A program made the translations under genes and the position numbers. Shown here one piece after another: positions 3,801-51,828 of a DNA stretch of 64,000 bases (the stretch's first letter is position 1; each line of letters begins with the position of its first letter). This DNA comes from a candidate division WWE3 bacterium RIFCSPHIGHO2_02_FULL_38_14 (lineage in GTDB: Bacteria > Patescibacteriota > WWE3 > UBA101185 > UBA10185). The stretch covers positions 62,812 through 126,811 of the forward strand of contig MEVD01000003.1 of the NCBI GenBank assembly GCA_001772865.1. The letters are read 5' to 3'. Under the pieces are notes generated by a model. The model ran no database searches. It had not been told where the DNA came from and was given only the letters and a program-made list of their open reading frames with translations.

Positions 3801-4117
3801 GCGGGCAGAGATTTGGAGAGATGGAGGTTTGGGCGTTGGAAGCTTACGGTGCCGCCCATATTTTAAAGGAAATGCTTACGATAAAATCCGATGATTTAGT
3901 AGGCAGGACACAAGCTTACAGTGCGATCATCCAAAATAAGCCAATTCCTGAATCATCAATACCGGAGACTTTTAAATTACTTGTCAGAAAAATGAATGGT
4001 TTGGGATTAGGTCTTGAAGCCATAGGAGGAGAGACTGTAGAAGAGTCAGAGGCCGCTAGTACAGAAGCTGCCGGTGAGAATGAGGAAAATATAGTAGTTG
4101 AATCGGAGGTCAAGTGA
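863..4117 (+). CDS. rpoB: DNA-directed RNA polymerase subunit beta
   Basis: 1084 aa. Conserved beta-subunit motifs are present (FGRICPVRTPEGPNIGLI, GDKLAGRHGNKGVIS, RFGEMEVWALEAYGAA). TGA stop overlaps the rpoC GTG start. Confidence 0.97.
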   Translation: MRHNFSKRKVTLSLPNLLGIQLESYQWLREKGLNEILEELGLIEDYSGRGWVLKLSSAEIQKENISVSEALHSGRTYDAPWYVSAVLEDPLIKKSKKQQIYMGDIPLMTTRGTFIINGVERVIVNQLIRSEGVLFTGAPSPVTGQFLGGAKVLPKNGVWLEIETSRSGVISVKIDRKRKITISTLLRVFGLETDDDIRNAFNDVETNPETNFTESTLAKDPSSNYDEACLEIYRKMRPGEPLVVENARALVDSMFFNKRRYSLGEVGRFKVNQVLGLNFPNDPKHRLLQLEDLVKIISRIIELNNGLGDPSDVDHLSNRRVKSVGELLQNQIRIGFLQMEKNIKEKMSLAPRNELPEPNLLVSPRAVAAKIHSFFATGQLSQFQDQQNPLTSLDHLRRLSVMGPGGLTKERASMAVRDVHYSSFGRICPVRTPEGPNIGLINYLAMYAKVNQYGFLETPYIKLEKEPDGRIKVTGEVVYLAAYDEEGVYITDSSVQLDENNYIIQKQVPLRMGGNFILGDVSHAQYMELVPRQIVGISAGLIPFLSNDDISRALMGTQQMSQAVPLVKAESPIVGTDIEREISENANAVVFAEDSGTVIFADASKVIVSYEGRKGKAEYKPTKFTKSNLDTCYNQYVRVSTEQKINKGDILIEGPGVQKGELAIGTNVIVGYMIWEGYEYEDGIIISDRLVKEDILTSIHVSDYTISVLETKLGPEEITRDIPNLPEDALRNLDEEGIVAIGSKVKSGDVLVGKVAPKGEADLSAEERLLRAIFGEKAKDVRDNSLVMPHGEHGVVIGVKRVNRKQNDELPAGVLEEITVYVAQQKKIEIGDKLAGRHGNKGVISAIVSTVDMPHLEDGTPIDIVFSSEAVLKRMNVGQILEAPLGMAGEKLGRLYSIPALEAVDEKEIEAELLNANIPVNGKRRLIDGRTGEYFDNEVVVGNTYILKLIHMSEEKMHARSTGPYSLITQQPLGGKAQFGGQRFGEMEVWALEAYGAAHILKEMLTIKSDDLVGRTQAYSAIIQNKPIPESSIPETFKLLVRKMNGLGLGLEAIGGETVEESEAASTEAAGENEENIVVESEVK

Positions 4118-46456: not shown

Positions 46457-47443
46457 ATGCATAAATCTACATTTTTCCTTATGAAACCGGATGGAAATAG
46501 TATTGGTAAAGCCAAAGAGTTGAACTTGGATTCTGTTTTTGCGAGTCACAAAAATTTGGATGAAATCGTTATAAAAACGTTGCGGGAAAATTTGAAGTCG
46601 GGTATTGAAATAAATGCGGAGGTTGGAGTATTTGCAGGAAAAGATTTGTGGGATAAATTTCCCGATGTCATTCCGGTTGAAGCAGGCGGAAAAGAACCTG
46701 CGAGAGGATGGTATTACGGAGTTTGTCCTTCACACGAAGGAGTAAGAAATGAATGTTTGCAGAATGTTAAAGCACTTTTAGAAAGAGACTTAAACGGAAT
46801 TTGGCTGGATTTTATAAGATATCCTACCAAATGGGAAGAACCTGAACCATATATATTAGATGTATGCTATTGCGACAGATGTCTGAAAAAATTCAGCGAA
46901 TATTTGGGTGAACCTATAGAAGGAAACACTTTGGAAGATAAAGTGCTACTAATTGACGGAAGTTATTATATTGAATGGATCGAATTTAAAACTGAAATGA
47001 TCACTTCAATGGTAAGAGAAGTCAGGAAGTTGATTGATGATCATAATAGAAATGTTCAAAATGATAAAAAGGTAAAGCTGGGATTTTTCGCTATTCCATG
47101 GCAGGATAAAGAACATAGTGCAGGAATTAAAAGAATAGTTGCGCAGGATTTTGGAGCGTTAAGTACTTTGGTGGATATTTACAGCCCGATGTTATACCAC
47201 AAAATGTGCGGAAAAGAAGTTTCGTGGATAAAGGAAATGGTTAATTATTTTTGGGAAGTAGGTAAACCTCAGCTGCCTTTGATTCAAACCGAGCCCCGCG
47301 AAAGTGAAATAAAAGTTGATGAATTTAAGCAGGCATTGGATTTTGCAGGTGCAAGCCCTTCAACCGGAGTATGTGTATTCTTTTTGGAAGATTTGATGAA
47401 ACAGCCTGAAAAGTTTGATACAGTAAAAGAGTATTTTAAGTGA
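46457..47443 (+). CDS. hypothetical protein, GHL10/DUF187-like (glycoside-hydrolase-like TIM barrel)
   Basis: VCPSHEGVRNECL...LNGIWLDFIRYP resembles the conserved GHL10 block. Start taken at ATG 46457 after the ferredoxin stop. Confidence 0.4.
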   Translation: MHKSTFFLMKPDGNSIGKAKELNLDSVFASHKNLDEIVIKTLRENLKSGIEINAEVGVFAGKDLWDKFPDVIPVEAGGKEPARGWYYGVCPSHEGVRNECLQNVKALLERDLNGIWLDFIRYPTKWEEPEPYILDVCYCDRCLKKFSEYLGEPIEGNTLEDKVLLIDGSYYIEWIEFKTEMITSMVREVRKLIDDHNRNVQNDKKVKLGFFAIPWQDKEHSAGIKRIVAQDFGALSTLVDIYSPMLYHKMCGKEVSWIKEMVNYFWEVGKPQLPLIQTEPRESEIKVDEFKQALDFAGASPSTGVCVFFLEDLMKQPEKFDTVKEYFK

Positions 47444-47449
47444 AAATCT

Positions 47450-48328
47450 TTATACTTTTTTAGCCACTACCAGCATAATATCGTATAAATTAATATTCAG
47501 GTTCGGTTTTAGAATTCCGGTTTTTTTAAGAAGTTTATAAAAGCTAAAAGCATATTTAATCTTATAAAAGGTAACTAATCTAAATAACAAATAATCCAGG
47601 GATAGTTGGATTGACGGGTATATAATCTCAACTACCTCAAAGCCTGACTCATTAAATATTCTGGTTATAGTGTTTTTGTCAAAATAAGAAAGGTGTTGTG
47701 GTATGTTGTATAAATGCCAGTATTTACCGCTAATTTTTGCAACAGTGCTTCCGACGTCTCCGGTAGTTAATGCGACTACACTGCCCTGTTTAGTCATTTC
47801 ACTAAGCTGCTGTAAAGTTTCTAACGGGTCCGAAACATGCTCAATAGTATCCCAAAGGGTAACAACATCAAATATTTGATTTATATAAGGCGAATCTTTA
47901 ATAACTCCCGCAAAAGCTTTTAAGTTTTTTTTCTTTGCCTGCTCAACTGCATATTCTGAAACGTCAACACCATAAACTTCCCACCTGGAAGATGCAACCT
48001 CCATAAAAGCACCTGTAGCACATCCTACATCGAGCAAGTTGCCGCCGCTATTATATTTACTCAAAATATCTACCCGGAATTTAAATGAATTCTTTAAACT
48101 TTCAGCTTCTTTTTCATAATCGCTGTAGGCATGTTTTATGCCGGGATCATTGAAAAAATCTTCAGCATAATAATTGGAAAAAAACTCATCGTCCGGATCA
48201 AAATTAAGAAAAGTCAGGCTGCATTCATTGCATTTCGCCAGTTCGTATCCGTATTTTATAAATAAAACATTGTAATTATTAGATTTGCAAAGCCGGCATT
48301 TATTTAGCTTTTTTATTGTAGTTTCCAT
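47450..48328 (-). CDS. class I SAM-dependent methyltransferase with N-terminal zinc-ribbon
   Basis: CRLCKS...CNEC zinc ribbon; LLDVGCATGAFM (motif I); VYGVDVSE (motif II). Start trimmed to the internal Met to limit overlap with the upstream GT2. Confidence 0.7.
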   Translation of the reverse strand: METTIKKLNKCRLCKSNNYNVLFIKYGYELAKCNECSLTFLNFDPDDEFFSNYYAEDFFNDPGIKHAYSDYEKEAESLKNSFKFRVDILSKYNSGGNLLDVGCATGAFMEVASSRWEVYGVDVSEYAVEQAKKKNLKAFAGVIKDSPYINQIFDVVTLWDTIEHVSDPLETLQQLSEMTKQGSVVALTTGDVGSTVAKISGKYWHLYNIPQHLSYFDKNTITRIFNESGFEVVEIIYPSIQLSLDYLLFRLVTFYKIKYAFSFYKLLKKTGILKPNLNINLYDIMLVVAKKV

Positions 48329-49040
48329 AATAATAGTTAAATAAAATTGAAGCCAGATCTTTTGATGACCGCCAAGTATCAATTATGGTAGAAACAGTAC
48401 TTCCTTCTATATGATACCAGCTCACTGGCAGCTCTTTGATTGAAAAGCCCAGTTTTTTTGCAAGAAATAATGTTTCAGAATCATATGCGAACCTGTTTAT
48501 TCTTTGTTTTTCAAAAACTGATTTAGCGGCGTTTGCTTTAAACCCTTTGAAGCCGCAAGTTATATCGGTAAAGTTTAATCCAAGAAAAATATTAGTAATA
48601 AGTGTATACCCTTTACCCAGAATCCTTCGCGGTGCATTTTGGCTTTTTTTTGTTTGAGTTAAAAAATGTTTTTTTGAACCAATAACTATATCATATTCGT
48701 CTAATTCCTTAATAAATTTATGCATTTCTGCTAAATCTATAGAAATATCAGCATCCATTACAATAATTTTCCCTCCCTTGCTGGCAAGAACGCCTAATTT
48801 TACCGCGTGTCCTTTACCCTGATTTTGTGAATAACTTACGATTTGAATTGGAATGTCGGAATACTGATTTTTCAAATCTTCGAGTAAATTAATAGTGTTG
48901 TCTGTAGATCCGTCATTAGCCAATACCAACTCAAACGGGTCTTTTAACTCTTTTAACATGTAGTCGATGGCTGTGGTCATCCTGCTTTCGGATTTCATTC
49001 TTTTTTCTTCGTTATAAAATGGTATTACTACGCTTAGCAT
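48300..49040 (-). CDS. family 2 glycosyltransferase (polyprenyl-phosphate sugar synthase-like)
   Basis: 246 aa. LSVVIPFYNEE, LVLANDGSTDNT, VMDADIS. Confidence 0.8.
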   Translation of the reverse strand: MLSVVIPFYNEEKRMKSESRMTTAIDYMLKELKDPFELVLANDGSTDNTINLLEDLKNQYSDIPIQIVSYSQNQGKGHAVKLGVLASKGGKIIVMDADISIDLAEMHKFIKELDEYDIVIGSKKHFLTQTKKSQNAPRRILGKGYTLITNIFLGLNFTDITCGFKGFKANAAKSVFEKQRINRFAYDSETLFLAKKLGFSIKELPVSWYHIEGSTVSTIIDTWRSSKDLASILFNYYYGNYNKKAK

Positions 49041-49212
49041 ATCAAACCGTTTAAATTGTTAACGTAAAATAGTATATCACGCGCAAATGGGGTTTTTTAT
49101 TATTCTTTTTGGATGAATTAATCGAATAACCTTATAGTACTGTTTACATGTTATTTATATTAATTCAAAATATGATAATTCTACAGAGTAGACACCTCGA
49201 AAGGAGAGGAAG

Positions 49213-49983
49213 GTGACTGAGATTATCTTTAATGTGGCAAACGCTTTTCCTATTGGGGCGTTCAGGATGGGGAAGGTGATAGAGATCGTACTAGCTGATG
49301 GGTACGATCGCGTAAGTGTACTGCCCACATGGGGTTTACCAGCCCAGAATTTCAAATTAAGCCCCTGGATTCGATGCGCGGAACAGCCTTGGAACCCCGG
49401 ATCGCCTTGGGCATGGTTTCATGGTTTTATGACGCGCAACTTAAAAAGTCCGAGGCTTCATGATGTGCTCCTTTTTCCTTGATATAAAGAGTGGTGGATG
49501 CCACTTTGGGAGCGGATCAAGAGGTGGGGTGCAACTCCATTTGTTCACTCATATGCGGAGGTACCTGGGCTAGTTGAAGTTCACCCTGCAATGAGATTGA
49601 GTGGCGAATCCGCCGTTGCGATGGCTGAGGTGACTAACAGGCTGCTTGTTTTCGACACGATGCATGCTGTCCGTGGGCTTCGACCGGGAGATTTGAAGCC
49701 TGGTGAATCTCTGGATAGTAAGCTTGGGGATTGGTGATTGTGGATGGGAGTCGCCGTGGCGACTAACAGACTCGGATTATTCGATTTTCACCCGACTCCT
49801 ACACAATTAGCCAAAGGCGAGTTGGATGAGCCGCTTTCAATGCTCAGATTCGCCCTGAACCGCGGGTACAAAGGTCCCATACGCGTCGAAGCGGTGTTAC
49901 CCAGGCTTGTCGACCAAGCGGTTCACTGGCGTCTAGTTGCCCACCGAATGCTCAACCTTGTACACAACGAGCTCGAATCCTAA
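49213..49983 (+). other. GC-rich island ORF: 257-codon frame with strong SD and GTG start, interrupted only by two in-frame TGA codons (49480-49482, 49735-49737). Candidate UGA-recoded gene, very recent pseudogene, or structured RNA.
   Basis: Three consecutive ORF-track ORFs (49213-49482, 49498-49737, 49738-49983) lie in the same frame. AAGGAGAGG sits 6 nt before the GTG. An upstream TAG closes the frame at 49189. Local GC is far above the flanking sequence. No recognisable protein family. Confidence 0.3.
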
Positions 49984-49991
49984 TCTCGATT

Positions 49992-50026
49992 CCTCCCCGC
50001 AAATGCCCCTTGCGTGGAGGTTTCTA
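49992..50026 (+). terminator. rho-independent terminator closing the GC-rich island
   Basis: CCUCC-C-CGCAA-AUGCCCC-UUGCG-U-GGAGG nested hairpin followed by UUUCU, 9 nt after the TAA at 49981-49983. Confidence 0.55.
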
Positions 50027-50109
50027 ATATCAAATCATAGGTAAATCTAAAGGATTTTCAGTGAAAATAAAATAAATTTATATACATATTTATAACTATC
50101 TATACAACC

Positions 50110-50138
50110 TTGCCACACATAAATTAATCATGTATTAT
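50110..50138 (+). promoter_or_regulatory. candidate promoter TTGCCA-17-TATTAT for the radical SAM gene
   Basis: The -10 element overlaps the annotated ATG at 50137. If this promoter is used, the transcript would begin near the second in-frame ATG (50146), giving a leaderless mRNA. Confidence 0.3.
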
Positions 50139-51828
50139 GACAAATATGTTCAAAATAGCTGTAGGCTATCCGCCCATCGAAACTAACAAAGGTGTTCCGC
50201 TTCTTTCCCAAAACCGACAATTTCAGTATTTCAATGCACCTACTTATATCTATCCAATGGTGCCTGCATATGCTGCATCACAAGCTAAAGCTAAAGGATA
50301 CAATGTTGTATGGGTAGACGGTATCGCGGCTAAACAAACTTATTCACAATGGCTTGAACAGCTTGATCGGGAAAAACCCGACCTTTTAATGATTGAAACA
50401 AAATCGCCAGTAGTAAAACAACACTGGAGAATAATAACTGATCTCAAACAAAAATTCCCGAATATGCTCATAACTTTAGTAGGTGATCACGTTACTTATG
50501 CTCCAAAAGAAACAATGGACAACAGTCCGGTTGATTATATAATTACTGGTGGTGATTACGATTTTATGCTTTCAGATTTGGCCAATTCAATAACCAAAGG
50601 TGATAAACTTGTGGGTGGTATTTGGGGGCGCAAAAGCGACCAAAAAGTTTCTTTGGGAGAATTAATTAAGTACGAAGATTCTCAAGTGAACGGAAATGAA
50701 GCATATTGGGTTTCCGGACCATTAAAACAAACTCACAATCTAGACGAACTGCCGTTTGTTGACCGCGACCTCACTCATTGGGAGTACTATGCCTATGAAA
50801 ACGGAAATTATAAGTACACTCCCGCCACATATATGTACTCCGGTAAGGACTGCTGGTGGAACAGATGTACTTTCTGTGTGTGGGATCATACGATAAATGC
50901 GATTGGAACTTATAGAAGATTCACTCCCGAAAGATTGTTTGCCGAGGTTAAACATGTAGTTGACAAATACGGTGTCCGCGAAATATTTGATGATGCCGGA
51001 ACTCTTTTTGTAGGTCCTCCTCTTAAAAAATTCTGTAACATGCTAATTGAATCCGGCTACAATAAAAAAGTGATTTACGGCTGCAATATGAGATTAAACG
51101 CTTTAACACAGGAGTATTATGATTTAATGGGTAAGGCTAATTTCAGGTTTATATTGTATGGTATGGAATCCGGTAACCAAAAAACTCTGGACATGCTGGA
51201 TAAAGGATTAAAAATTCACCAAATAGAAGAAGGAGTAAGAATGGCTAAAAAAGCCGGCCTCGAACCACATTTAACAATTATGCTTGGGTATCCATGGGAA
51301 TCTGAGGAAGACGCCAAAAATACTATTGCCTTATCAAAAAGACTTTTCAAAGAGGGTTATGTAGATACTATGCAGGCTACAATTGTAATTCCATATCCTG
51401 GAACGCCTCTTTACAAACAATGTATAGAAAACAACTGGTTATTGGTTGATCCTACCGACTACGAAGCCTTTGATATGAGAGGTCCAGTTATGAAGATACC
51501 TTTTGCACATGAAAGACTTTATGAACTTACACAGGAACTATATTCTTCGTTTTTTACGCCTCAGTATGCTTTGAGAAAGCTTAAGGCGGTACGCAAATGG
51601 GATGATATTAAGTTTTTAGTTTATTCAGCGAAGAAACTTATGGGTCATCTGCTTGACTTTGATGAAGAGCAGACCAAGGTAAGTATGTCTTCTCCTACGT
51701 TCTGGATAAACGCCTTTAAGAGTATGTTTACTCATTTGAAAGAGAAAAAAGAAGATAAAACTATTGAGGTAACAATTAAAGAAAGTGCTGAAGCAGAAGT
51801 TAAAGCTAAATCCGAAGTTAAAATATAA
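50137..51828 (+). CDS. cobalamin (B12)-binding domain / radical SAM enzyme (class B rSAM-like, candidate C-methyltransferase)
   Basis: 563 aa. N-terminal Rossmann-like B12-binding domain. rSAM core with Cys triad DCWWNRCTFC (Cx4Cx2C spacing, not Cx3Cx2C). GMESGNQ SAM-binding region. Confidence 0.75.
   Translation: MTNMFKIAVGYPPIETNKGVPLLSQNRQFQYFNAPTYIYPMVPAYAASQAKAKGYNVVWVDGIAAKQTYSQWLEQLDREKPDLLMIETKSPVVKQHWRIITDLKQKFPNMLITLVGDHVTYAPKETMDNSPVDYIITGGDYDFMLSDLANSITKGDKLVGGIWGRKSDQKVSLGELIKYEDSQVNGNEAYWVSGPLKQTHNLDELPFVDRDLTHWEYYAYENGNYKYTPATYMYSGKDCWWNRCTFCVWDHTINAIGTYRRFTPERLFAEVKHVVDKYGVREIFDDAGTLFVGPPLKKFCNMLIESGYNKKVIYGCNMRLNALTQEYYDLMGKANFRFILYGMESGNQKTLDMLDKGLKIHQIEEGVRMAKKAGLEPHLTIMLGYPWESEEDAKNTIALSKRLFKEGYVDTMQATIVIPYPGTPLYKQCIENNWLLVDPTDYEAFDMRGPVMKIPFAHERLYELTQELYSSFFTPQYALRKLKAVRKWDDIKFLVYSAKKLMGHLLDFDEEQTKVSMSSPTFWINAFKSMFTHLKEKKEDKTIEVTIKESAEAEVKAKSEVKI

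What the first reader, a model, noticed from the sequence alone, without database searches (positions are those of the whole stretch)
49117..50026. GC-rich foreign-looking island with a complete promoter-SD-GTG-terminator unit whose frame is broken only by two TGA codons
Between convergent/divergent glycosylation genes lies an island of about 830 bp that is far more GC-rich than the flanks. It has a candidate promoter and a TAG closing the frame at 49189. A near-perfect Shine-Dalgarno (AAGGAGAGG) sits 6 nt before GTG 49213, and a strong rho-independent terminator lies at 49992-50026. One reading frame stays open for 257 codons apart from two in-frame TGA codons (49480, 49735). At this composition roughly ten stops would be expected, so the frame is non-randomly open, and both interruptions are TGA. 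The host uses TGA as a true stop (rpoB, rplC). Three options remain: (1) a horizontally acquired gene that needs UGA read-through or recoding (Sec/Gly/Trp), perhaps from a code-4/25 organism or phage; (2) a very recently inactivated foreign gene; (3) a structured RNA with a coincidentally open frame. Each TGA is followed within 6-12 nt by a small hairpin (49488-49507; 49749-49764), and the protein shows an internal repeat (VAMAEVTNRLLVFD / VAVATNRLGLFD). No known family is recognisable.
Basis: seen in the sequence. Interest (0 to 1): 0.8.

Follow-up and report, generated by a model that had tools for sequence, protein, structure and literature searches.

The report
Freshly broken foreign sugar-enzyme gene
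The GC-rich island is a horizontally acquired gene for an unannotated TIM-barrel enzyme that two ordinary point mutations (TGG>TGA and CGA>TGA) have just switched off, so it is a young pseudogene and not a case of stop-codon recoding.

Summary
There is a GC island (0.51 versus 0.36), and one frame runs from GTG 49213 to TAA 49983, broken only by TGA 49480 and TGA 49735.

Comparative data settle what it is:
- A syntenic relative (L006) carries an intact 256-aa ortholog, with TGG (Trp) at the first site and CGT (Arg) at the second.
- Five near-identical contigs (L001-L005) carry only the first TGA and have CGA at the second site.
- At least 23 contigs carry both stops.
- One close relative (L007) has an empty site in place of window 49160-50053.

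Both stops are therefore single transitions at ordinary sense codons. The two ancestral residues differ (Trp and Arg), so no single recoding rule fits. The host, a candidate division WWE3 / CPR bacterium, ends 11 of 45 long ORFs with TGA.

Substitutions between the two alleles fall mainly on third codon positions in all three segments. No Rfam family matches. The hairpins after the TGAs are not significant.

This is ordinary. The side observations (allele mosaicism, GC3 that has not decayed) are mildly interesting.

The parts
49160..50053 (+). The whole single-gene cassette: leader, CDS and terminator hairpin. It is present in the window and in L001-L006, and absent from the close relative L007.
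   Evidence: L007 aligns to window 49032-49159 and 50054-50160, with about 34 unrelated nt in between. The cassette is 99.1-100% identical in L001-L005 and L039-L047, and 67% identical in L006.
49200..49209 (+). Shine-Dalgarno-like AAAGGAGAGG, 6 nt upstream of the GTG start.
   Evidence: Read directly. The AAAGGAGAG core is conserved in L006, and the GTG start is conserved too.
49213..49983 (+). Disrupted CDS of 256 codons for a xylose-isomerase-like TIM-barrel protein. It is now three ORFs of 89, 79 and 81 aa.
49480..49482 (+). First nonsense codon (codon 90), TGG(Trp)>TGA, a G>A transition. This is the older lesion.
   Evidence: The codon is TGA in the window and L001-L005, and TGG in L006. 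It is Trp in P0001, P0003, P0004 and P0005.
49735..49737 (+). Second nonsense codon (codon 175), CGA(Arg)>TGA, a C>T transition. This is the younger lesion.
   Evidence: The codon is TGA in the window-type allele, CGA in L001-L005 and CGT in L006. It is Arg/His/Lys across the family. The two-stop allele occurs in at least 23 contigs.
49992..50025 (+). GC-rich hairpin (CCTCCCCGCAA...TTGCGTGGAGG) plus a short TTTCT tail. It is the probable terminator of the cassette.
   Evidence: -17.6 kcal/mol, z -4.7. The 49984-50026 segment containing it is 84% conserved in L006, against 65% for the CDS. The consensus scanner did not call it.
49041..49159 (.). Pre-existing intergenic DNA upstream of the divergent GT2 gene. 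It is not part of the island.
   Evidence: It is shared with the empty-site locus L007 (105 of 128 identical) and with L006 (83%).
48300..49040 (-). Flanking family-2 glycosyltransferase gene with host-like GC (0.33).
   Evidence: PF00535.
50137..51828 (+). Flanking B12-binding radical SAM gene with host-like GC (0.38). It served as the anchor for finding related genomes.
   Evidence: PF04055, PF02310 weak.

Best explanation
Window 49160-50053 is a single-gene accessory cassette. It was acquired horizontally by a WWE3 (CPR/Patescibacteria) lineage and inserted between a GT2 gene and a B12-radical-SAM gene of a cell-surface glycan cluster.

It encodes a 256-aa member of a very small, unannotated family of xylose-isomerase-like TIM barrels. 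The inferred function is a metal-dependent sugar isomerase, epimerase or lyase-type enzyme acting in glycan synthesis.

In the window's strain the gene has been inactivated stepwise by two transitions: first TGG(Trp90)>TGA, then CGA(Arg175)>TGA. Translation should stop at codon 90, so the locus is a young pseudogene.

Shown: the two mutations, their order, the intact ortholog, the empty site, the coding-type evolution and the fold.
Inferred: the enzymatic role, the loss of function and the foreign origin.
For: - The intact syntenic ortholog P0001/L006 has TGG at the first site and CGT at the second.
- The 1-stop allele (L001-L005, 5 of 894 nt different) has TGA at the first site and CGA at the second.
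- The 2-stop allele occurs in at least 23 contigs from many samples, with 0-1 mismatches. This rules out sequencing error.
- L007 is an empty site.
- No homolog lies within +/-10 kb of the rSAM gene in 22 other WWE3-type loci (L008-L028). In six of them the GH42-like gene directly abuts the rSAM gene.
- Codon-position substitutions are 75/52/145, in one frame across both stops. dN/dS is 0.12.
- All twelve near-invariant family residues are still intact in the window copy, so the inactivation is recent.
- Composition and codon usage look foreign. GC3 is 0.52 against a host value of 0.31. Trp is 5.1% against 1.1%. The gene has 4 CGA codons, a codon the host rarely uses, since the host strongly prefers AGA for Arg.
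- The host uses TGA as a stop.
- There are weak PF01261 hits in 6 of 27 members, and weak PDB hits to MJ1311 and 4ovx.
- Remote homologs also sit next to GT2, B12-rSAM, methyltransferase and UDP-glucose dehydrogenase genes.
Against: - No expression or proteomic data exist, so low-level read-through of the two UGAs cannot be excluded.
- The 2-stop allele is nearly invariant, is found in many samples, and appears on at least two flank backgrounds. That is also what a selected allele would look like.
- There are too few substitutions since inactivation to demonstrate relaxed constraint.
- The foreign origin rests on composition and on presence/absence. No donor was found.
- GC3 is still 0.52-0.56 in both alleles although their synonymous divergence is saturated. 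Simple acquisition followed by amelioration does not predict this.
- The enzymatic activity is inferred from the fold and the gene neighbourhood only.
Confidence: 0.86

Rival explanations
1. Programmed UGA recoding. The gene is functional, and both UGAs are decoded as selenocysteine, or as Trp/Gly as in code 4/25. This could be because the gene came from such an organism, or because a suppressor tRNA exists.
For: - The frame is open apart from the two TGAs.
- The first TGA replaces a conserved Trp, as a code-4 gene would show.
- Some CPR phyla (SR1/Absconditabacteria) do read UGA as Gly (PMC3812714).
Against: - The second TGA replaces Arg/His/Lys, so no single reassignment fits.
- Neither position is Cys or Sec in any homolog.
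- Near-identical alleles have CGA at site 2, and the ortholog has TGG and CGT. The TGAs are therefore new mutations, not inherited code.
- The host terminates 24% of its long ORFs with TGA, and WWE3 uses the standard code.
- The hairpins after the TGAs are not significant, and they are not conserved or not specific to TGA.
- No tRNA lies in the window. Both stops are followed by T, which by my recollection of E. coli termination studies is not a leaky context for UGA.
Confidence: 0.02
2. A functional or selected 'off/low' allele. Either the nonsense mutations were favoured, for example loss of a surface-glycan modification under phage or host pressure, or leaky near-cognate read-through still gives a trickle of enzyme. 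The allele then spread through the population by recombination.
For: - The 2-stop cassette is 99.9-100% identical across at least 23 contigs and many samples.
- It occurs on flanks that are only about 84% identical downstream of roughly 50385 (L043).
- The 1-stop allele also sits on different flank combinations (L001, L002, L004).
- All conserved residues are intact.
- The locus is a surface-glycan cluster, a class of locus known for loss-of-function and allele-swapping polymorphism (general knowledge).
Against: - Neutral hitch-hiking of a young pseudogene in a recombining population explains the same pattern.
- The mosaics could partly be chimeric metagenome assemblies of co-occurring strains.
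- Two independent stops make useful read-through very unlikely, since the two read-through frequencies multiply.
- Nothing points to selection specifically.
Confidence: 0.09
3. A structured non-coding RNA whose frame is open by coincidence.
For: In AT-rich genomes GC-rich islands are often RNA genes (general knowledge). A stable hairpin sits at the 3' end.
Against: - There is no Rfam match at gathering threshold or at E <= 1.
- Substitutions against L006 are concentrated at third codon positions in every segment.
- Protein homologs exist down to 25% identity, with invariant catalytic-type residues.
- The protein folds confidently as a TIM barrel.
Confidence: 0.01
4. A sequencing or assembly artefact created the stop codons.
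For: Single-base errors can create stops.
Against: The first TGA is seen in the window and in the five independent 1-stop assemblies L001-L005 that were aligned. Contigs L039-L047 carry the cassette at 99.9-100% identity. Both stops are seen in at least 23 contigs from ENA, JGI and Logan assemblies.
Confidence: 0.01

Closest known systems
Xylose isomerase-like TIM barrel superfamily (Pfam PF01261 AP_endonuc_2). Structural neighbours are Art22 isomerase 8z1i, 4ovx, the C-glycoside deglycosidase subunits DfgA 7bvs and DgpC 9m3b, IolI 1i6n and D-allulose 3-epimerase 5zfs.
   Same: - Near-invariant Glu122, Asp148, His151 and Glu226, plus Asp/His at 191, sit at strand ends. This resembles the Glu-Asp-His-Glu metal site of the superfamily (the comparison is an inference).
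- The size is similar, about 250-280 aa.
- It is associated with sugar-metabolism genes.
   Different: - Sequence identity to any solved member is only 9-17%.
- No member reaches the Pfam gathering score (best 11.5 bits against 31.1; E 0.0097).
- It has its own motifs: PWNPG, HDxLxFP, LGDW.
- The family is tiny (35 hits among 1.84 billion representatives) and has been seen mainly in CPR-type contigs.
- The substrate is unknown.
Ordinary bacterial pseudogenes made by nonsense mutation in accessory or surface-polysaccharide genes.
   Same: - Single-base transitions hit sense codons.
- An intact ortholog sits at the same locus in a relative.
- The population is polymorphic: intact, 1 stop, 2 stops and absent.
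- The promoter, SD and terminator are still in place.
   Different: - The host is an uncultured CPR bacterium with a small genome, where pseudogenes are thought to be rare.
- The gene is compositionally foreign and unusually Trp-rich (13 TGG codons). That makes it a large target for G>A nonsense mutations.
UGA reassignment in CPR (code 25 in SR1/Absconditabacteria and Gracilibacteria) and selenoprotein genes.
   Same: Only the superficial feature: in-frame TGA codons in an otherwise open frame, within a CPR genome.
   Different: - The host uses UGA as a stop.
- The two sites correspond to Trp and Arg, not to Gly or Cys/Sec.
- Relatives have sense codons at both sites.
- There is no SECIS-like conserved hairpin.

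Membership tests
Xylose isomerase-like TIM barrel superfamily (PF01261 / AP_endonuc_2) | (beta-alpha)8 barrel fold whose closest structural neighbours are members of this superfamily | tested here: met
   [not shown]
Xylose isomerase-like TIM barrel superfamily (PF01261 / AP_endonuc_2) | Sequence match to the Pfam model at or above its gathering score | tested here: not met
   The window protein and P0001 have no hits even at E <= 10. 6 of 27 family members give sub-threshold hits, the best at E 0.0097; P0012 scores 11.5 bits against a cut-off of 31.1. The family is therefore a fold-level relative and not a Pfam member.
Xylose isomerase-like TIM barrel superfamily (PF01261 / AP_endonuc_2) | Conserved Glu/Asp/His/Glu metal-binding residues at the C-terminal ends of the barrel strands | tested here: inconclusive
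   Near-invariant E122, D148, H151 and E226, plus D/H at 191, lie at or just after predicted strands 120-122, 144-148, 187-194 and 223-227. No residue-level superposition on a solved metal site was done.
Xylose isomerase-like TIM barrel superfamily (PF01261 / AP_endonuc_2) | Metal-dependent isomerase, epimerase, dehydratase or lyase activity on a sugar or keto substrate | not testable with these tools
   This needs biochemistry on the intact allele (P0001).
Pseudogene by nonsense mutation | Orthologous or allelic copies carry sense codons at the stop positions, one base away | tested here: met
   Site 1 is TGG in L006. Site 2 is CGA in L001-L005 and CGT in L006.
Pseudogene by nonsense mutation | The stops are real in the organism's genetic code | tested here: met
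   11 of 45 long ORFs, including rpoB, end in TGA. ORFs of at least 150 aa under table 11 cover 86% of the window. PMC3812714 reports 22% UGA stops in a complete WWE3 genome.
Pseudogene by nonsense mutation | Relaxed selection or further decay after inactivation | tested here: inconclusive
   Only 0-8 differences occur among the stop-carrying alleles. All conserved residues are still intact. This is consistent with very recent inactivation but is not proof of non-function.
Pseudogene by nonsense mutation | No full-length protein is made | not testable with these tools
   This needs metaproteomics or ribosome profiling.
Selenoprotein gene (bacterial Sec recoding) | Cys or Sec at the homologous position in relatives | tested here: not met
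   Trp at site 1 and Arg/His/Lys at site 2.
Selenoprotein gene (bacterial Sec recoding) | A conserved SECIS hairpin immediately 3' of the UGA | tested here: not met
   The hairpins have z -1.2 and -1.6. The first is equally present in L006 with TGG, and the second is absent from L006. No Rfam hit was found.
Selenoprotein gene (bacterial Sec recoding) | selA/selB/selC/selD in the genome | not testable with these tools
   Only the 64-kb window is available, and it holds no tRNA at all.
Reassigned UGA (translation table 4 or 25) | UGA is not used as a terminator, and in-frame UGAs occur at conserved Trp (code 4) or Gly (code 25) positions | tested here: not met
   UGA terminates 24% of long ORFs. 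The two sites are Trp and Arg, and neither is Gly in the close subfamily.
Mobile gene cassette (integron cassette, IS or MITE-borne gene) | Terminal inverted or direct repeats, or an attC site, and a nearby integrase or transposase | tested here: not met
   Only short AT-rich chance-level repeats occur at the borders. The neighbours are glycan-synthesis genes. More distant homologs share neither the leader nor the terminator.

The most novel reading that the evidence does not exclude
The stop-carrying alleles may not be junk. They could be selected 'off' or 'trickle' states of a CPR-specific glycan-modifying enzyme. On this reading, nonsense mutations, possibly with leaky UGA read-through at the former Trp codon, tune or abolish a surface-sugar modification. 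Cassette-level homologous recombination then shuffles the intact, 1-stop, 2-stop and empty states among co-existing WWE3 strains. That would be a capsule/O-antigen-style diversity system in an ultra-small episymbiont. Sustained selection or repeated import would also explain why the gene keeps a GC3 of 0.52-0.56 in a genome with GC3 0.31.
Probability: 0.07. Interest if true: 0.5.

Novelty: new member of a known kind. Interest (0 to 1): 0.22.

Why it matters
The main value is as a clean negative. An apparently 'recoded' GC-rich ORF in a CPR genome turns out to be a two-hit pseudogene, and the order of the two hits can be read from population data.

There are three practical consequences:
- Public catalogues currently list its fragments as separate 89, 79 and 75-81 aa hypothetical proteins. 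One of them is even a cluster representative (P0006).
- The intact allele P0001 defines a small, unannotated xylose-isomerase-like TIM-barrel family. It is linked to GT2 and B12-radical-SAM glycan clusters in CPR bacteria, and it could be given a family model and tested biochemically.
- The locus is a compact example of gene gain, decay and loss, together with allele mosaicism, in a lineage usually described as streamlined.

Tried and rejected
- Pfam and NCBIfam scans of the repaired protein gave nothing even at E <= 10.
- The first AF2 run, with a 3-sequence alignment, was unusable (pLDDT 48.6). It was replaced by the 27-sequence run.
- The genome-contig scan with P0001 found no relative. The second scan was therefore spent on the neighbouring rSAM gene, which identified the host clade and the empty site.
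The 3-sequence version returned only one more copy of the intact allele (L048).
- The profile search of the 5.8-billion-protein set added only P0037.
- A literature search for the top structural neighbour Art22 found nothing relevant.
- I asked whether the conserved non-coding flanks mean the cassette is mobile with conserved ends, and rejected the idea. The outer flanks are simply the neighbours' upstream regions and are also present at the empty site. Distant homologs do not share the leader or the terminator. There are no terminal repeats.
- I asked whether the whole family is intrinsically GC-rich, and rejected that too. P0023 has host-like GC in a 0.29-GC genome (0.293).
- I looked for a rate asymmetry of the window allele against the L006 allele, using the outgroups P0003-P0005. 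The differences were inconsistent, so there is no signal of long-term relaxation.

Full report
**1. The observation**

The island is real. GC rises from 0.32-0.37 in the flanks to 0.50-0.53 across 49250-49999. The 771-nt frame from GTG 49213 to TAA 49981-83 has GC 0.515 and GC3 0.52. The 45 long ORFs of the window average GC 0.357 (sd 0.026) and GC3 0.314 (sd 0.028).

The frame contains exactly two internal stops, TGA at 49480-82 (codon 90) and TGA at 49735-37 (codon 175). Shuffled sequences carry 11.9 +/- 3.3 stops, with P(<=2) = 0.0006. The other five frames carry 7-16 stops.

The SD-like AAAGGAGAGG at 49200-49209 is present, and so is the hairpin at 49992-50020 (-17.6 kcal/mol, z -4.7).
- The T tract after the hairpin is weak, and the terminator scanner did not call it.
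- Promoter-like matches are at chance level.
- The hairpins after the two TGAs are not significant (z -1.2 and -1.6).

**2. What the two TGAs are**

A search of 5.8 billion proteins returned two relatives.

P0001 is an intact 256-aa protein, 63% identical over the full length. It is encoded in contig L006 at the same position: GT2 gene on the minus strand, then this gene, then the radical-SAM gene, all within the same glycan cluster.

P0002 (161 aa, 99% identical) starts at the ATG after the first TGA and runs straight through the second site with an Arg. It is encoded in five independent contigs, L001-L005.

The DNA alignment shows the following:
- Site 1 is TGA in the window and in L001-L005, but TGG (Trp) in L006.
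- Site 2 is TGA only in the window-type allele. It is CGA in L001-L005 and CGT in L006.

Both stops are therefore single transitions, G>A and C>T, at ordinary sense codons, and they were acquired in that order. The family alignment has Trp at site 1 in the close subfamily and Arg/His/Lys at site 2. No single decoding rule (Sec, Trp or Gly) fits both sites.

The two-stop allele is not an error. It is on record in at least 23 contigs from ENA, JGI and Logan assemblies, with 0-1 mismatches over 894 nt. No intact version of this particular allele was found.

That both stops are TGA is unremarkable. The gene has 13 TGG and 4 CGA codons, and 17 of its 34 single-transition routes to a stop produce TGA, so P(both TGA) is about 0.25.

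**3. Coding, not RNA; standard code**

Differences between the window and L006 fall 75/52/145 on codon positions 1/2/3. The same bias appears in each of the three segments, so one frame was under protein-level selection across both stop sites. dN/dS is about 0.12, with dS saturated.

Rfam gives nothing at gathering thresholds over the whole window, and nothing at E <= 1 over the island.

The host reads TGA as stop. 11 of 45 long ORFs, including rpoB, end in TGA, and table-11 ORFs of at least 150 aa cover 86% of the window. This matches the 22% UGA stops reported for a complete WWE3 genome, in contrast with SR1, which reads UGA as Gly (PMC3812714).

The first post-TGA hairpin is equally present in L006, where the codon is TGG. 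It simply encodes the conserved WWMPLW peptide. The second hairpin is not conserved.

**4. Host and history of the locus**

I used the neighbouring radical-SAM protein to scan one genome per species. It returned 22 bacterial loci (L007-L028), labelled candidate division WWE3, Patescibacteria or, by automated naming, Saccharibacteria.

None of these loci encodes a homolog of the island gene within 10 kb. In L008, L011, L014, L015, L017 and L018 the GH42-like gene directly abuts the radical-SAM gene. The methyltransferase(-)/GT2(-)/island(+) block of the window (47450-50053) is therefore an accessory insertion of this sub-clade.

L007 is the closest species representative, with a radical-SAM protein 97% identical. 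It matches window 49032-49159 and 50054-50160 but has only about 34 unrelated bases in between. This is an empty site, and it delimits the cassette as 49160-50053.

The 'conserved non-coding flanks' outside these borders are just the upstream regions of the neighbouring genes.

No terminal repeats, integrase or transposase accompany the cassette. More distant homologs do not share its leader or terminator.

Foreign origin is inferred from three things:
- composition (z about 6-7.5);
- codon and amino-acid usage, with Trp at 5.1% against 1.1% and CGN codons where the host prefers AGA for Arg;
- the presence/absence pattern.

No donor was identified.

**5. The protein**

An exhaustive HMMER search of 1.84 billion representatives found only 35 relatives at E <= 1e-3. 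Three of them are at 35-44% identity, and the rest are near 25%. None has a Pfam or NCBIfam model.

With a 27-sequence alignment AlphaFold2 gives pLDDT 93.7 and pTM 0.91, with an alternating beta/alpha pattern.

Near-invariant E122, D148, H151 and E226, plus D/H191, at strand ends resemble the superfamily's Glu-Asp-His-Glu metal site. This is an inference.

Gene context is consistent. The window copy lies in a cluster with GT2s, a polysaccharide flippase-type protein, PMT/YfhO-type membrane proteins, an NDP-sugar epimerase/dehydratase, a DegT aminotransferase and an NTP-transferase. The remote homolog P0023 lies beside a B12-radical-SAM gene, a Methyltransf_23 gene and a GT2 gene. P0007 lies beside a GT2 gene and a UDP-glucose dehydrogenase gene.

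The most likely role of the intact protein is therefore a metal-dependent sugar isomerase, epimerase or lyase-type step in cell-surface glycan synthesis. This is inferred and not shown.

**6. Mechanism and status of the window copy**

Translation from GTG 49213 should terminate at codon 90. That leaves an 89-residue fragment lacking most of the barrel and all the putative metal ligands.

All twelve near-invariant residues are still encoded, and the stop-carrying alleles differ by at most 8 bases. The inactivation is therefore very recent. I put 0.86 on 'young pseudogene of a horizontally acquired accessory gene'.

The main residual alternative, at about 0.09, is that the off or leaky state is itself selected and spread by recombination. 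True recoding, RNA and artefact together get about 0.04.

**7. Things that remain odd**

(a) The cassette and its flanks are mosaic across contigs.
- L001 combines L006-type flanks with the window-type cassette.
- L002 has a window-type left flank and an L006-type right flank.
- L043 is identical to the window up to about 50385 and then only about 84% identical.
- Downstream of 50381, L001, L002, L006, L007 and L043 are 100% identical to each other, although they carry the 1-stop, the intact divergent, the empty and the 2-stop states.

This looks like frequent homologous recombination at a surface-glycan locus. Chimeric assembly of co-occurring strains cannot be excluded.

(b) The two alleles are far more divergent than their neighbours. 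They are 63% identical at the amino-acid level, with dN 0.29 and dS saturated. The neighbouring genes are 82-96% identical, with dS 0.6-0.8 next door.

(c) Both alleles keep GC3 at 0.52-0.56. A more distant homolog in a related MAG has GC3 0.37, close to its host value. Simple 'acquire once, then ameliorate' does not predict this. Separate imports of divergent alleles, or selection on composition, would.

**8. Verdict**

Its favoured exciting reading (recoding) is not supported. Its option 2 is correct. The object is a new, divergent member of a known fold superfamily, caught as a two-hit pseudogene. It is ordinary biology, of modest interest for annotation and for CPR population genetics.

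Noticed in passing
window 47150-51400; L001, L002, L004, L006, L007, L043, L048: The flanks and the cassette recombine independently. Downstream of about 50381 there are discrete radical-SAM haplotypes. One of them is 100% identical in contigs that carry the intact, 1-stop, 2-stop and empty states, and the breakpoint near 50380 is sharp. This is either a recombination hot spot at a glycan locus or chimeric strain assemblies.
   Followed up: partly
window 49213-49983 and L006 8521-9291: Both alleles keep GC3 at 0.52-0.56 in genomes with GC3 about 0.31, although their synonymous divergence is saturated (pS 0.72). The related homolog in L031 has GC3 0.37. The lack of amelioration is unexplained.
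   Followed up: partly
window 47450-50053 versus L008, L011, L014, L015, L017, L018: In other WWE3 genomes the GH42-like gene is followed within 55-115 nt by the radical-SAM gene. The methyltransferase(-)/GT2(-) pair has host-like GC and is, like the island, an insertion specific to this sub-clade. It was evidently acquired separately from the GC-rich gene.
   Followed up: partly
L036 7047-9872: The B12-binding radical-SAM gene next to the remote homolog P0023 is 941 aa long and carries intein (Intein_splicing) and LAGLIDADG_3 homing-endonuclease domains.
   Followed up: no
It joins two successive beta-alpha units, each ending in a conserved Asp. It exists only in this allele and not in L006. 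It is either chance or a small intragenic conversion.
   Followed up: partly
window 49213-49983; L039-L047: Public gene calls split the pseudogene into separate hypothetical proteins of 89, 79 and 75-81 aa. The 79-aa piece (P0006) is even a 50%-identity cluster representative. These fragments pollute protein catalogues.
   Followed up: yes
L007, L009-L011 and others (record titles): MAGs whose radical-SAM gene is 76-97% identical to WWE3 genomes are labelled 'uncultured Candidatus Saccharibacteria' or 'Saccharimonadales'. The taxonomic labels of these automated assemblies look unreliable. L031 (homolog P0003) and L010 come from the same such MAG, GCA_035480775.1.
   Followed up: no
window 48300-48382: The mechanically listed methyltransferase ORF (TTG start at 48382) overlaps the 3' end of the GT2 gene by 83 nt. 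Public gene calls use a shorter 292-aa version that overlaps by 29 nt. Overlapping starts and stops (ATGA/GTGA type) are frequent throughout the window, for example rpoB/rpoC at 4114-4117.
   Followed up: no
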